Assembly (NCBI GenBank): GCA_951406725.2
Contig: OX597822.1
Coordinates: 31,992,001-32,056,000, forward strand
Direction: 5' to 3'
DNA: 64,000 nucleotides
Source: Octopus vulgaris
Taxonomy: Eukaryota
The notes under the pieces were generated by a model. The model searched no databases. It saw only the letters and a program-made list of their open reading frames with translations, and had not been told where the DNA came from. Both the position numbers and the translations under genes were made by a program. Within the stretch, counting starts at the first letter, position 1. Every line of letters starts with the position of its first letter. This document shows positions 3,476-60,194 of the stretch, in pieces.

Positions 3476-4043
3476 AAGGCGGCGAGCTGGCAGAAACGTT
3501 AGCACGCCGGGCGAAATGCGTAGCCGTATTTCATCTGCCGTTACGTTGTGAGTTCAAATTCCGCCGTGTTCGAATTCGCCTTTCATCCTTTGAGGGTCGA
3601 TAAATTGAATACCAGTTACGCACTGGGGTCGATGTAATTGACTTAATTCCTTTGTCTCTCCTTGTTTGCCCACTCTATGTTTAGCCCCTTGTGGGTAGTG
3701 AAGAAATAGGTATTTCGTCTGCCGCTACGTTCTGAGTTCAAATTCCGCCGATGTCGATTTTGCCTTTCATCCTTTCGGGGTCGATTAAATAAGCACCAGT
3801 TACGCACTGGGGTCGATATAATCGATTTAATCCGTTTGTCTGTCCTTGTTTGTCCCCTCTATGTCTAGCCCCTTGTGGGTAGTAAAGAAATAGGTATTTC
3901 GTCCGTCTTTACGATCTGAGTTTAAATTCTGCTGAGGTCGACTTTGCCTTTCATCCTTTCGGGCTCGATGAAATAAGTACCAGTTAAACACTGGGGTCGA
4001 TATCGTTGACTAGCCCTCCTCCTGCCTATAGTAGAAAGGATTA
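3476..4043 (+). mobile_element. Trimeric tRNA-derived SINE (head plus three ~184-bp body units)
   Basis: Head ggcggcgagctggcagaaacgttagc. Unit gtatttc..ctgagttcaaattccgccg..gcctttcatcctttcggggtcg recurs at ~3527, 3710 and 3894. TSD TTAAAGTATATA at 3461-3472 and 4044-4055. Confidence 0.85.
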
Positions 4044-29751: not shown

Positions 29752-30115
29752 CTACTTGCTTCAGTCACAAGATTGCAGCCATATAAGGGTACCGCTTTGG
29801 AAAATTAGGCCTAGTACTTATTGTATCAATGTCTTTTTCCGAACCGTTACGGGGATATAAGCACATCAATACCGGGTATCAAGTGCTGTTAGGGACAAAC
29901 ACACACACACACACATACACACAAACACACACACATACACACATACACACCCGTACGCGCGCACATGCACACACATATGTACAAAAGGATTCTTTCAGTT
30001 TCCGTCTACCAAATCCATTCATAAGTTTTTGGTCGGCCAAGGCACCACGCATGGAACTGAACCCGGAGCCATATGTTTGGATAGCAAGCTACTTACCACA
30101 CAGCTACTCTTGTGT
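29752..30115 (-). mobile_element. CORE-type tRNA SINE, degenerate
   Basis: Colinear with the family, with deletions. Confidence 0.75.
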
Positions 30116-30124
30116 CTATGTATG

Positions 30125-30173
<49 letters not shown>

Positions 30174-30188
30174 TCAATTTACCCTGTA

Positions 30189-30295
30189 ATTTCTTATACG
30201 ATATACCGTTTCATCTGCTGATTAATGGTAAACCAACCTGATTAAATTAAATCAAGCCAATCTTCCACAGGCCCTCAGATTCTTCAGTAAGAAAT
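30189..30295 (-). ncRNA. Type I hammerhead ribozyme (array unit 1)
   Basis: Reverse strand: ATTTCTTA-CTGAAGA-ATCTG..CAGAT-GAAA-CGGTATATCG-TA-TAAGAAAT. Confidence 0.85.
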
Positions 30296-30681
30296 AGCCC
30301 AAGACGGAACAGATATTTTCACGAGGCATTTCCGACGTTGCCAAGTTTATATCTGACCTAAAATTTTCAAATCGTCGCACTCGCGCCAAATTTATCGGCA
30401 GCAAATAAATATAAGCCGTCGATTCAATTACGGAATTAACCAGAAAATTCATAATTAATCAATATAGGGTGGCAAAAAAAATTTTGTAGAATTCTTTTGC
30501 CACCAGCGGCCTAGTAGGAAAAAATTAAAATAGTCATAGACCATTTTTAAGTTCAACATCAACAATAAAGGAACGGCCATAATAGGCCATACACCCACTA
30601 GAAATAACAGCCAAAGCTTCAACCGCAAATAAAAGTTAATTCAGTAAACCAGGAGAAAATTTAAAAAACATTTACCCTGTA

Positions 30682-30788
30682 ATTTCTTATACGATATACC
30701 GTTTCATCTGCTGATTAATGGTAAACCAACCTGATTAAATTAAATCAAGCCAATCTTCCACAGGCCCTCAGATTCTTCAGTAAGAAAT
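30682..30788 (-). ncRNA. Type I hammerhead ribozyme (array unit 2)
   Basis: Same core and stems as unit 1. Confidence 0.85.
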
Positions 30789-31174
30789 AGCCCAAGACGG
30801 AACAGATATTTTCACGAGGCATTTCCGACGTTGCCAAGTTTATATCTGACCTAAAATTTTCAAATCGTCGCACTCGCGCCAAATTTATCGGCAGCAAATA
30901 AATATAAGCCGTCGATTCCATTACGGAATTAACCAGAAAATTCATAATTAATCAATATAGGGTGGCAAAAAAAATTTTGTAGAATTCTTTTGCCACCAGC
31001 GGCCTAGTAGGAAAAAATTAAAATAGTCATAGACCATTTTTAAGTTCAACATCAACAATAAAGGAACGGCCATAATAGGCCATTCACCCACTAGAAATAA
31101 CAGCCAAAGCTTCAACCGCAAATAAAAGTTAATTCAGTAAACCAGGAGAGAATTTAAAAAACATTTACCCTGTA

Positions 31175-31281
31175 ATTTCTTATACGATATACCGTTTCAT
31201 CTGCTGATTAATGGTAAACCAACCTGATTAAATTAAATCAAGCCAATCTTCCACAGGCCCTCAGATTCTTCAGTAAGAAAT
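31175..31281 (-). ncRNA. Type I hammerhead ribozyme (array unit 3)
   Basis: Same core and stems as unit 1. Confidence 0.85.
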
Positions 31282-31666
31282 AGCCCAAGACGGAACAGAT
31301 ATTTTCACGAGGCATTTCCGACGTTGCCAAGTTTATATCTGACCTAAAATTTTCAAATCGTCGCACTCGCGCCAAATTTATCGGCAGCAAATAAATATAA
31401 GCCGTCGATTCCATTACGGAATTAACCAGAAAATTCATAATTAATCAATATAGGGTGGCAAAAAAATTTTGTAGAATTCTTTTGCCACCAGCGGCCTAGT
31501 AGGAAAAAATTAAAATAGTCATAGACCATTTTTAAGTTCAACATCAACAATAAAGGAACGGCCATAATAGGCCATTCACCCACTAGAAATAACAGCCAAA
31601 GCTTCAACCGCAAATAAAAGTTAATTCAGTAAACCAGGAGAAAATTTAAAAAACATTTACCCTGTA

Positions 31667-31773
31667 ATTTCTTATACGATATACCGTTTCATCTGCTGAT
31701 TAATGGTAAACCAACCTGATTAAATTAAATCAAGCCAATCTTCCACAGGCCCTCAGATTCTTCAGTAAGAAAT
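31667..31773 (-). ncRNA. Type I hammerhead ribozyme (array unit 4)
   Basis: Same core and stems as unit 1. Confidence 0.85.
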
Positions 31774-32274
31774 AGCCCAAGACGGAACAGATATTTTCAC
31801 GAGGCATTTCCGACGTTGCCAAGTTTATATCTGACCTAAAATTTTCAAATCGTCGCACTCGCGCCAAATTTATCGGCAGCAAATAAATATAAGCCGTCGA
31901 TTTTTTAAAATTTTCTCCTGGTTTACTGAATTAACTTTTATTTGCGGTTGAAGCTTTGGCTGTTATTTCTAGTGGGTGAATGGCCTATTATGGCCGTTCC
32001 TTTATTGTTGATGTTGAACTTAAAAATGGTCTATGACTATTTTAATTTTTTCCTACTAGGCCGCTGGTGGCAAAAGAATTCTACAAAATTTTTTTTGCCA
32101 CCCTATATTGATTAATTATGAATTTTCTGGTTAATTCCGTAATGGAATCGACGGCTTATATTTATTTGCTGCCGATAAATTTGGCGCGAGTGCGACGATT
32201 TGAAAATTTTAGGTCAGATATAAACTTGGCAACGTCGGAAATGCCTCGTGAAAATATCTGTTCCGTCTTGGGCT

Positions 32275-32381
32275 ATTTCTTACTGAAGAATCTGAGGGCC
32301 TGTGGAAGATTGGCTTGATTTAATTTAATCAGGTTAGTTTACCATTAATCAGCAGATGAAACGGTATATCGTATAAGAAAT
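32275..32381 (+). ncRNA. Type I hammerhead ribozyme (inverted arm, unit 1)
   Basis: Stem I ATTTCTTA (32275-82) pairs with TAAGAAAT (32374-81). CTGAAGA at 32283-89, stem II ATCTG/CAGAT, GAAA at 32358-61, stem III ACGG-tata-TCGT, cleavage triplet GTA at 32371-73. Confidence 0.87.
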
Positions 32382-32767
32382 TACAGGGTAAATGTTTTTT
32401 AAATTTTCTCCTGGTTTACTGAATTAACTTTTATTTGCGGTTGAAGCTTTGGCTGTTATTTCTAGTGGGTGAATGGCCTATTATGGCCGTTCCTTTATTG
32501 TTGATGTTGAACTTAAAAATGGTCTATGACTATTTTAATTTTTTCCTTCTAGGCCGCTGGTGGCAAAAGAATTCTACAAAATTTTTTTTGCCACCCTATA
32601 TTGATTAATTATGAATTTTCTGGTTAATTCCGTAATGGAATCGACGGCTTATATTTATTTGCTGCCGATAAATTTGGCGCGAGTGCGACGATTTGAAAAT
32701 TTTAGGTCAGATATAAACTTGGCAACGTCGGAAATGCCTCGTGAAAATATCTGTTCCGTCTTGGGCT

Positions 32768-32874
32768 ATTTCTTACTGAAGAATCTGAGGGCCTGTGGAA
32801 GATTGGCTTGATTTAATTTAATCAGGTTGGTTTACCATTAATCAGCAGATGAAACGGTATATCGTATAAGAAAT
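32768..32874 (+). ncRNA. Type I hammerhead ribozyme (inverted arm, unit 2)
   Basis: Same core and stems as 32275-32381. Confidence 0.85.
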
Positions 32875-33261
32875 TACAGGGTAAATGTTTTTTAAATTTT
32901 CTCCTGGTTTACTGAATTAACTTTTATTTGCGGTTGAAGCTTTGGCTGTTATTTCTAGTGGGTGAATGGCCTATTATGGCCGTTCCTTTATTGTTGATGT
33001 TGAACTTAAAAATGGTCTATGACTATTTTAATTTTTTCCTACTAGGCCGCTGGTGGCAAAAGAATTCTACAAAATTTTTTTGTGCCACCCTATATTGATT
33101 AATTATGAATTTTCTGGTTAATTCCGTAATGGAATCGACGGCTTATATTTATTTGCTGCCGATAAATTTGGCGCGAGTGCGACGATTTGAAAATTTTAGG
33201 TCAGATATAAACTTGGCAACGTCGGAAATGCCTCGTGAAAATATCTGTTCCGTCTTGGGCT

Positions 33262-33368
33262 ATTTCTTACTGAAGAATCTGAGGGCCTGTGGAAGATTGG
33301 CTTGATTTAATTTAATCAGGTTGGTTTACCATTAATCAGCAGATGAAACGGTATATCGTATAAGAAAT
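33262..33368 (+). ncRNA. Type I hammerhead ribozyme (inverted arm, unit 3)
   Basis: Same core and stems as 32275-32381. Confidence 0.85.
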
Positions 33369-33490
33369 TACAGGGTAAATGTTTTTTAAATTCTCTCCTG
33401 GTTTACTGAATTAACTTTTATTTGCGGTTGAAGCTTTGGCTGTTATTTCTAGTGGGTGAATGGCCTATTATGGCCGTTCCTTTATTGTTG

Positions 33491-33519
<29 letters not shown>

Positions 33520-33522
<3 letters not shown>

Positions 33523-33910
33523 ATTTATAATTGAGGATAATATCGATATTATCAAGTGGCTAGCATGGGAATAAATACCATACAAAGGTAATAATTTTTT
33601 TACAACTATAAATAAGGGTATCTGAGAGACACCACCATGCCGAAATAGGAGTCAAACCCTCAGATACCCTTATTTATAGTTGTAAAAAATTATTACCTTT
33701 GTATGGTACTTATTCCCGTGCTGACCACTTGATAATATCGATATTATCCTATTTATAAATTTATATAATTCGTCACTATATTCACTGCGGTGTTTATTTT
33801 GACCATATCGTGCTTACGAGGTAGTTGGCGGGCAATTTAAATCTGGCCTTGTACATACGTGCATATATATATGTATGGACGTGTATATGTACGTGTTCTG
33901 TATATATCTT
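33520..33910 (+). mobile_element. Penelope pLTR/retrozyme-like element (second family) with inverted 5' segment forming a fold-back
   Basis: Arms at ~33520-33627 and 33659-33765. Colinear with 36749-37343. Confidence 0.75.
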
Positions 33911-59609: not shown

Positions 59610-60194
59610 CCTTTCTACTATAGGCACAAGGCCTCAAATTTTGGGGAAGGAAATAGTCGATTATATCCACACCAGTGCTCAACTGGTACTTAATTAATTG
59701 ACCCCGAAAGGATGAAAGGCAAAGTCGACCTCAGCGGAATTTGAACTCAGAACGTAGAGACAGGCGGACGAAATACCTATTTCTTTAATACCCACACGGG
59801 GCTAAACACAGAGAGGACAAACAAGGACAGACAAACGGATTAAGTCGACTATATCGACCCCAGTGCGTAACTGATACTTATTTAATCGTCCCTGAAATAA
59901 TGAAAGGCAAAGTCGACCTCGGCGGAATTTGAAATCAGAACGTAGTGGCAGACGAAATACCTATTTCTTTACTACCCACAAGGGGCTAAAGACAGAGAGA
60001 ATGAACAAGGACAGACAAACGGATTAAGTTGATTATATCGACCCCAGTGCATAACTGGTACTTATTTAATCGACCCCGAAAGGGTGAAAGGCAAAGTCGA
60101 CCTCGGCAGAATTTGAACTCGTAACGCAGCGGCAGACGAAATATCGCTAAGCGTTTCTCCCGGCGTGCTAACGATTCTGCCAGCTTGCCGCCTG
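59610..60194 (-). mobile_element. Trimeric SINE of the 3476 family
   Basis: Three body units. TSD CCTA(G/A)TTTTATATATT at 59594-59609 and 60195-60210. Confidence 0.88.

What the first reader, a model, noticed from the sequence alone, without database searches (positions are those of the whole stretch)
30177..31920. Inversion breakpoints match twin-primed reverse transcription of one multimeric or circular RNA
Seen: read in HHR-sense orientation, the left arm ends at ..taagaaattacagggtaaat (30177) and the right arm starts at the next monomer positions, ttttttaaa.. (31901). The two arms therefore join almost seamlessly into one ~6.7-unit multimer whose 5' half is flipped. Variant bases are not mirror-symmetric (ggagagaattt is in left unit 2 but in the fourth right-arm unit), which argues against a simple read fold-back. 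Known: this geometry is the twin-priming signature of target-primed reverse transcription. Inference: a single insertion event, possibly with rolling-circle RT around a circRNA. The result is a palindrome with ~1.5-kb arms and a ~245-bp spacer that could form dsRNA or siRNA.
Basis: partly seen in the sequence, partly recalled or inferred. Interest (0 to 1): 0.75.

Follow-up and report, generated by a model that had tools for sequence, protein, structure and literature searches.

The report
Retrozyme copied from both DNA ends
This is one of hundreds of copies of a young, protein-free repeat carrying a predicted self-cutting RNA, pasted into TA microsatellites as two back-to-back arms that nearly always end at two fixed sites, one each; a Penelope-type enzyme likely copied one RNA from both cut DNA ends, and the seamless fit seen at this locus is not the family rule.

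Summary
Observation confirmed: 30177-33492 is a head-to-head array of a 493-nt unit (3.50 + 3.23 units) with a type I hammerhead motif, between (TA)n tracts; the left outer end (unit position 20) abuts the right arm's start (22). The family shows this fit is not its signature: 89 of 118 loci have one arm ending at position ~132 (site A) and the other at 229-243 (site B), none A+A or B+B; 0 of 62 sampled two-armed loci show the twin-priming fit. This locus's left junction carries the 7 letters of a site-B start, then skips 218 nt, so it is likely an ordinary A+B insertion with an internal jump or deletion. Both arms share variants (43 of 145; shuffled mean 3.5) and stop together near the ribozyme cut (15 of 62), supporting one template; uniform units favour, but do not prove, a circular RNA. 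This is the published Penelope 'inverted copy plus one-sided tail' layout on a non-LTR retrozyme. The scan reported the same two-site pattern before on other DNA, including this genome. Spanning reads, empty site and small RNAs remain untested.

The parts
30130..30169 (.). (AT)20 target microsatellite, left flank
   Evidence: sequence; TRF
30170..30176 (-). 7-nt junction: TT plus five letters matching unit positions 243-239, identical to the variant site-B end of loci L080 and L094; likely the true start of the left arm, followed by a 218-nt skip (238-21)
30177..31902 (-). left arm, 3.50 units, unit positions 20 (outer) back to 266 (inner)
31900..31903 (.). central head-to-head junction (266 | 22), 1-2 T shared
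31902..33492 (+). right arm, 3.23 units, unit positions 22 (inner) to 132 (outer, family site A)
32275..32381 (+). type I hammerhead motif (stem I 8 bp, CUGAAGA, stem II with long hairpin extension, GAAA, 3-bp stem III, GUA cut before 32374); further copies 32768-32874, 33262-33368 (+) and 30189-30295, 30682-30788, 31175-31281, 31667-31773 (-)
   Evidence: conservation and paired changes in older copies; no Rfam hit
33493..33515 (.). (AT)n target microsatellite, right flank

Best explanation
The locus is a single, recent insertion of a non-coding hammerhead retrozyme into a (TA)n tract, likely made by a Penelope-like reverse transcriptase/endonuclease that cut both strands and primed each DNA end at its own fixed internal site of one RNA. 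Shown: two head-to-head arms; family-wide fixed outer ends at position ~132 (A) and 229-243 (B), one of each; shared variants between arms; frequent stops just after the predicted cut. Inferred: the two cDNAs were joined at their unfinished ends; arms longer than one unit came from repeated copying of one unit, most likely a circle, while short inserts came from self-cleaved linear monomers. At this locus the left arm likely began at B(243), then skipped 218 nt to position 20 by a template jump or a later deletion; its landing next to the other arm's stop (22) is more likely a by-product of a shared hot zone than a designed fit.
For: 181 exact A ends and 664 exact B ends abut (AT)n genome-wide, reversed-pattern controls 0. 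Of the first 79 listed A-end loci, 62 have an inverted second arm and 62 of 62 end at B, 0 at A. In 37 loci chosen by unit similarity, not by end: 29 A+B, 6 single, 2 B+other. Arms of a locus share 43 of 145 variants against a shuffled mean of 3.5, maximum 10 in 1000 (76 loci). Inner ends fall in positions 489-28 in 27 of 79 A arms and 19 of 62 B arms (5.3 and 4.2 expected), both arms together in 15 of 62 (Fisher p 3e-5). Lineage markers uniform within a locus in 46 of 47 cases; 0 indels at the cut in 264 crossings; 100 single-unit, 42 locus-wide and 15 subset variants. The window's left junction equals the B(243) junction found exactly at 2 other places; the same 7 letters follow 5 of 2929 other (AT)6+ runs, all in one compound microsatellite. 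A Penelope enzyme cuts and extends both strands and starts at two internal RNA sites in vitro (PMC11167929). An intact (TA)n-flanked RT + GIY-YIG element with two fixed 3' ends is present in this genome.
Against: The mobilising element is not identified: the unit has no similarity to 50 GIY-YIG loci examined apart from one real retrozyme stub nearby. A-to-B distance is about 107 nt, against 30-40 nt tails in the papers. 15 variants shared by only some units of a locus, including two at this locus (456G in 6 of 7, 33C in 2 of 7), are not explained by copying one monomer circle. The hot zone was defined after seeing the data. Joint stops near the cut could also come from annealing of the two cDNA ends at the T/A-rich palindromes at 22-33. 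No target-site duplication can be defined inside (TA)n. This locus is the only one of 13 listed jumps that lands next to the other arm's inner end, which leaves a real hand-off open.
Confidence: 0.7

Rival explanations
1. Primer hand-off: copying began at B for 5 nt, the other DNA end was extended from A for 3.2 rounds to position 22, and the first end then resumed at position 20 on the same continuous template for 3.5 more rounds, so the two arms record one 6.7-round run.
For: The fit is within 1 nt. The junction has no clean microhomology join: one A more than a CAT-mediated deletion would leave. Both arms share 456G. Under uniform landing, 1 such fit among 13 jumps has roughly a 1-in-8 chance (hand estimate).
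Against: 0 of 62 ordinary loci show the fit; 7 of 13 jumps land in 489-44 and 27 of 79 A arms stop in 489-28, so both coordinates are hot; L079 jumps to position 3 without any fit; the locus was picked because of the fit; 33C sits in one unit of each arm.
Confidence: 0.3
2. Linear multimeric transcripts of existing genomic arrays are the template, and no circle is needed; long arrays arise later by unequal exchange and are homogenised by gene conversion.
For: 15 subset variants, several in neighbouring units, two of them linked in the same two units of L094; excess stops at the cut on later passes, 9 of 102 against 3.7% background (p 0.013); L041 and L047 stop in the zone on a third pass.
Against: Mostly star-like variation within arrays (100 single-unit against 15 subset variants) and 42 locus-wide variants point to a one-unit bottleneck; locus-wide A>G exceeds T>C in RNA sense, 9 to 1 (p 0.003), single-unit variants do not, 13 to 10, although 4 of the 9 also occur in older copies. 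Copying linear arrays alone would shorten them every generation (inference).
Confidence: 0.3
3. Dual priming by two separate RNA molecules, one per DNA end (as proposed for some L1 insertions), from one source locus active in the cell.
For: Arms overlap in template coordinates at nearly all loci, which one molecule can give only with strand displacement or sequential copying; a dimeric enzyme is predicted for a Penelope protein (PMC11167929).
Against: Never A+A or B+B in 93 two-armed loci; arms stop together at the cut more than independent molecules would; rare variants are shared by both arms in 14 cases.
Confidence: 0.2
4. Assembly or read fold-back artefact.
For: Palindromic tandem arrays are hard to assemble; no displayed contig bridges this locus's junction (32 of 10,376 pieces shown).
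Against: The arms start at different unit positions (266 and 22), variants are not mirrored, outer ends obey a family rule, and 14 of 15 displayed joints in run X14 are head-to-head junctions at other positions.
Confidence: 0.04

Closest known systems
Metazoan non-LTR retrozymes (Cervera and de la Pena 2020, PMC7229834, passages read; Li, Clavereau and Pollet 2026 preprint 10.64898/2026.07.22.740005, parts 1-3 of 5 read)
   Same: Non-coding tandem units with one type I hammerhead each, low GC, dispersed multimers; proposed circular RNA intermediate and mobilisation by Penelope-like elements.
   Different: Unit of 493 nt is at the long end; hammerhead has a long stem II extension. The passages seen describe no inverted arms or fixed ends ('inverted' 0 times in PMC7229834 main text; its supplementary model figure was not seen). 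Circles and cleavage were not shown here.
Insertion units of endonuclease-bearing Penelope-like elements: inverted 5'-truncated copy plus one-sided 30-40 bp tail (PMC8557442, PMC3846280, passages read)
   Same: Head-to-head layout, one end longer than the other, (TA)n target preference, short palindromes at some central junctions.
   Different: No ORF; tail equivalent is about 107 nt; both arms can be multimers. PMC3846280 proposes self-priming on an antisense template; two fixed outer ends with variable inner ends fit two target-primed events better (inference).
Two-site internal initiation by the Anolis Poseidon element PAc in vitro (PMC11167929, parts 1-2 of 4 read)
   Same: Both target strands cut and extended; two internal start sites downstream of the hammerhead that define the tail.
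   Different: That paper saw no strand preference for the two sites and no need for ribozyme cleavage; here the sites are used strictly one per end and many arms stop at the predicted cut.
L1 twin priming and dual priming (PMC2837659, passages read)
   Same: Two DNA ends primed, inverted 5' part, arms joined in the middle.
   Different: In L1 the second primer anneals at a variable internal site and the pieces do not overlap; here the second site is fixed and the arms overlap.

Membership tests
Metazoan non-LTR retrozyme | Type I hammerhead motif in every unit | tested here: met
   Core CUGANGA/GAAA/NUH and three stems laid out; in 14 older loci core and stem I nearly invariant, N7 variable, GUA/GUC at the cut, paired changes at 410/477 and 414/473. 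Rfam gave no hit.
Metazoan non-LTR retrozyme | Tandem non-coding units of a few hundred nt, low GC, dispersed | tested here: met
   493-nt period; no frame of 150 aa or more over the array; 783 candidates in the genome.
Metazoan non-LTR retrozyme | Self-cleavage of the transcript | not testable with these tools
   Indirect only: arms stop just after the predicted cut, 37 of 122 first passes.
Metazoan non-LTR retrozyme | Expressed as linear and circular monomer RNA | tested here: inconclusive
   Runs guessed to be RNA hold the unit as contigs only; circular fold z = -4.1 against 40 shuffles; no raw reads.
Penelope-like element insertion unit | Inverted 5'-truncated copy with a tail at one end only | tested here: met
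   89 of 93 two-armed loci A+B; offset about 107 nt rather than 30-40.
Penelope-like element insertion unit | AT-rich or (TA)n target | tested here: met
Autonomous Penelope-like element | RT plus GIY-YIG ORF within the element | tested here: not met
   No ORF; none of 20 B-end loci ran into an ORF-bearing element at the arm.
Derivative of a specific Penelope pLTR | Sequence homology to the terminal repeat of a host element | tested here: inconclusive
   No match to 50 GIY-YIG loci out of 6136 candidates; sampling is small.
L1-type twin priming | Outer end of the inverted piece adjoins the inner start of the other piece | tested here: not met
   Met at this locus, but in 0 of 62 other loci within 5 nt in either direction.
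L1-type twin priming | Variable internal second priming site, poly(A) tail, target-site duplication | tested here: not met
   Second site fixed at 229-243; no poly(A); duplication undefinable within (TA)n.

The most novel reading that the evidence does not exclude
A Penelope enzyme complex copies one circular, sometimes A-to-I edited, ribozyme RNA round and round from two fixed sites, one per cut DNA strand, and this locus caught a primer hand-off: after 5 nt at site B and 3.2 rounds from site A, the same running template was passed to the other DNA end for 3.5 more rounds. It would be a genomic record of rolling-circle target-primed reverse transcription with primer swapping.
Probability: 0.22. 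Interest if true: 0.72.

Novelty: new member of a known kind. Interest (0 to 1): 0.45.

Why it matters
How Penelope-like elements make their inverted, one-tailed insertions, and whether animal retrozymes really spread through circular RNA, are stated as open in the papers read (PMC8557442, PMC7229834, the 2026 preprint). This young family gives hundreds of near-identical insertions with exact coordinates: two start sites used strictly one per end, a pile-up of stops at the ribozyme cut, and arms that share variants. That gives sharp predictions for an existing in vitro system. The single locus adds one unusual jump but is not itself evidence of a new mechanism. Each insertion also leaves a near-perfect palindrome of up to kilobases, a possible source of double-stranded RNA, untested here.

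Tried and rejected
Reads for this locus: contigs of 4 runs on the central junction showed no displayed piece bridging it; the unique left flank 29770-29940 had no cover in any of 4 runs, so neither the junction nor an empty site could be tested; contigs cannot cross the (TA)n. Rfam found no hammerhead at either threshold. Twin-priming fit as a family signature: rejected, 0 of 62 at 5 nt; 1 and 4 at 20 nt against 5.2 expected each. End-to-end jumping between linear monomers as the source of multimers: disfavoured, 0 scars in 264 crossings; the 6 indels expected from the mean rate are mostly homopolymer slips, so this is a test for scars only. L090 as a retrozyme-Penelope hybrid: rejected by reading, the retrozyme stub sits in its own short (TA)n beside an older decayed element. 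Partner search: a second Pfam accession recalled from memory was not in the library; GIY-YIG loci gave no homology. Editing as the origin of this locus's 456G: not shown, the allele is also in L043 and in 1 of 14 older loci. A second stop zone at 205-241 holds for B arms only (11 of 62, p 0.006; A arms 7 of 79, p 0.38). Rows dropped: L045 (duplicate of L044), the third, diverged segment of L057; older loci L129-L148 were left out of variant statistics. Sequence and nearby look-ups of earlier notes returned nothing.

Full report
Observation. The window holds two arrays of a 493-nt unit, 30177-31902 and 31902-33492, in opposite orientation between (AT)n tracts. Numbering from the predicted ribozyme cut, the left arm covers positions 266 to 20 on the minus strand (3.50 units) and the right arm 22 to 132 on the plus strand (3.23 units). 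One base is skipped at the 20|22 fit.

The unit. It carries a type I hammerhead motif: 8-bp stem I, CUGAAGA, stem II extended by a long hairpin, GAAA, 3-bp stem III, GUA cut. Rfam misses it. In 14 older loci the core and stem I are nearly invariant, N7 varies, the cut triplet is GUA or GUC, and two stem II pairs change together. No frame of 150 aa or more overlaps the array. The circular fold is more stable than 40 shuffles (z -4.1). Cleavage and circles are not shown.

The family. The genome search gave 783 candidates, 39 scored. I fetched those loci, 60 more chosen by an exact end pattern and 20 by a second end pattern. Outer ends are fixed: 181 exact ends at position 132 (site A) and 664 at 239 (site B) abut (AT)n, controls 0. 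Of 118 loci, 89 are A+B, 25 single-armed by BLAST, 3 B+other, 1 A+other (this window), none A+A or B+B. In the sample of the first 79 listed A ends, 62 have an inverted arm and all 62 end at 229-243; one end is A by construction there, so the other end carries the information. In the 37 loci not chosen by end, 29 are A+B, 6 single, 2 B+other.

Test of the twin-priming fit. L1 twin priming puts a variable internal priming site next to the other piece's start (PMC2837659, passages). In 62 loci the fit occurs 0 times within 5 nt in either direction, 1.4 expected each by chance.

This locus. The 7 letters between (AT)20 and the left arm equal the junction of a variant B end at position 243, found exactly at 2 other places and with small changes at 3 more fetched loci. 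The same letters follow 5 of 2929 other (AT)6+ runs, all within one compound microsatellite. The window's full left junction is unique in the genome. So the left arm likely began at B and skipped positions 238-21. Thirteen same-strand jumps were listed; 7 land in 489-44 and only this one lands next to the other arm's inner end. Since 27 of 79 A arms also stop in 489-28, the fit may be coincidence; a real hand-off is not excluded, and I give it about 0.3.

One template. Arms of a locus share 43 of 145 variants; shuffled pairs share 3.5 on average, at most 10 in 1000 (76 loci). Fourteen rare variants are in both arms, including 456G and 33C here. This suggests self-cleaved linear monomers as one class of template. 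Annealing at A/T-rich palindromes near 22-33 could add to the joint stops.

Circle or linear multimer. For a one-unit template copied repeatedly: lineage markers uniform in 46 of 47 cases, 0 indels at 264 crossings of the cut, 100 single-unit and 42 locus-wide variants. Against: 15 variants occur in only some units, two linked in the same two units of L094, and this locus has 456G in 6 of 7 and 33C in 2 of 7. These need multimeric templates or later gene conversion. I put a circular template at about 0.55.

Enzyme. The genome has many GIY-YIG loci (6136 candidates, 148 matches). Nine of ten loci picked for long frames encode a 765-aa RT + GIY-YIG protein, the tenth 755 aa; nine checked end at (AT)n at two fixed positions 31-38 nt apart, 6 short and 3 long. 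No homology to the unit was found, so the partner is unidentified.

Artefact. Contigs of run X14, under another organism label, show 14 head-to-head joints among 15 displayed, so the layout is not an assembly habit. This locus itself was not covered informatively.

Comparison. Inverted truncated copies, a tail at one end only and (TA)n preference are published Penelope features (PMC8557442, PMC3846280; passages). Two internal start sites and extension of both strands were shown in vitro (PMC11167929, parts 1-2 of 4). Retrozymes as non-autonomous Penelope partners with circular intermediates are proposed (PMC7229834, passages; preprint 10.64898/2026.07.22.740005, parts 1-3 of 5). Seven searches listed no paper whose title or abstract describes strict one-site-per-end pairing or stops at the cut for a retrozyme; supplements were not seen, and the model figure S9 of PMC7229834 may bear on this. 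Earlier notes of this scan report the two-site pattern on other DNA, including this genome; my reading was recorded before I saw them and they are not counted as support.

Verdict. A real, young non-LTR retrozyme insertion with a known Penelope layout. The family data make the insertion mechanism testable; the seamless fit that prompted the finding is a single-locus exception. Interest 0.45.

Noticed in passing
window 33520-33770: A second, older head-to-head stub of another high-copy family (2420 candidates) shares the right (AT)n: arms of about 140 and 109 nt, a 31-nt one-sided tail typical of Penelope stubs.
   Followed up: partly
window 3526-4003 and 59655-60143: Two 2.6-copy arrays of a 184-nt unit, in opposite orientation; not examined.
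   Followed up: no
L179-L188: Young (TA)n-flanked RT + C-terminal GIY-YIG element, 93-98% alike, with two fixed 3' ends; two copies (L182, L187) show an upstream 466-aa ORF; no canonical hammerhead pattern found in L179.
   Followed up: partly
L034:4090-4122 and L035:4312-4342: Two independent loci carry the same short templated piece (unit 88 to 56/58) at the central junction, next to arms starting at 467 and 459.
   Followed up: no
L041, L074, L078, L089, L127 central junctions: Runs of repeated TTTAAAAAA-type units at position 22-30, as if the enzyme slipped repeatedly near the RNA's 5' end.
   Followed up: no
L044 and L045 (C11): Two near-identical insertions 63 kb apart with the same ends and flanks: a segmental duplication or haplotype duplicate.
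   Followed up: no
L049, L056, L096, L099, L109, L121: Both arms stop at nearly the same unit position away from the cut; 10 of 62 loci coincide within 5 nt, often at local hairpins.
   Followed up: partly
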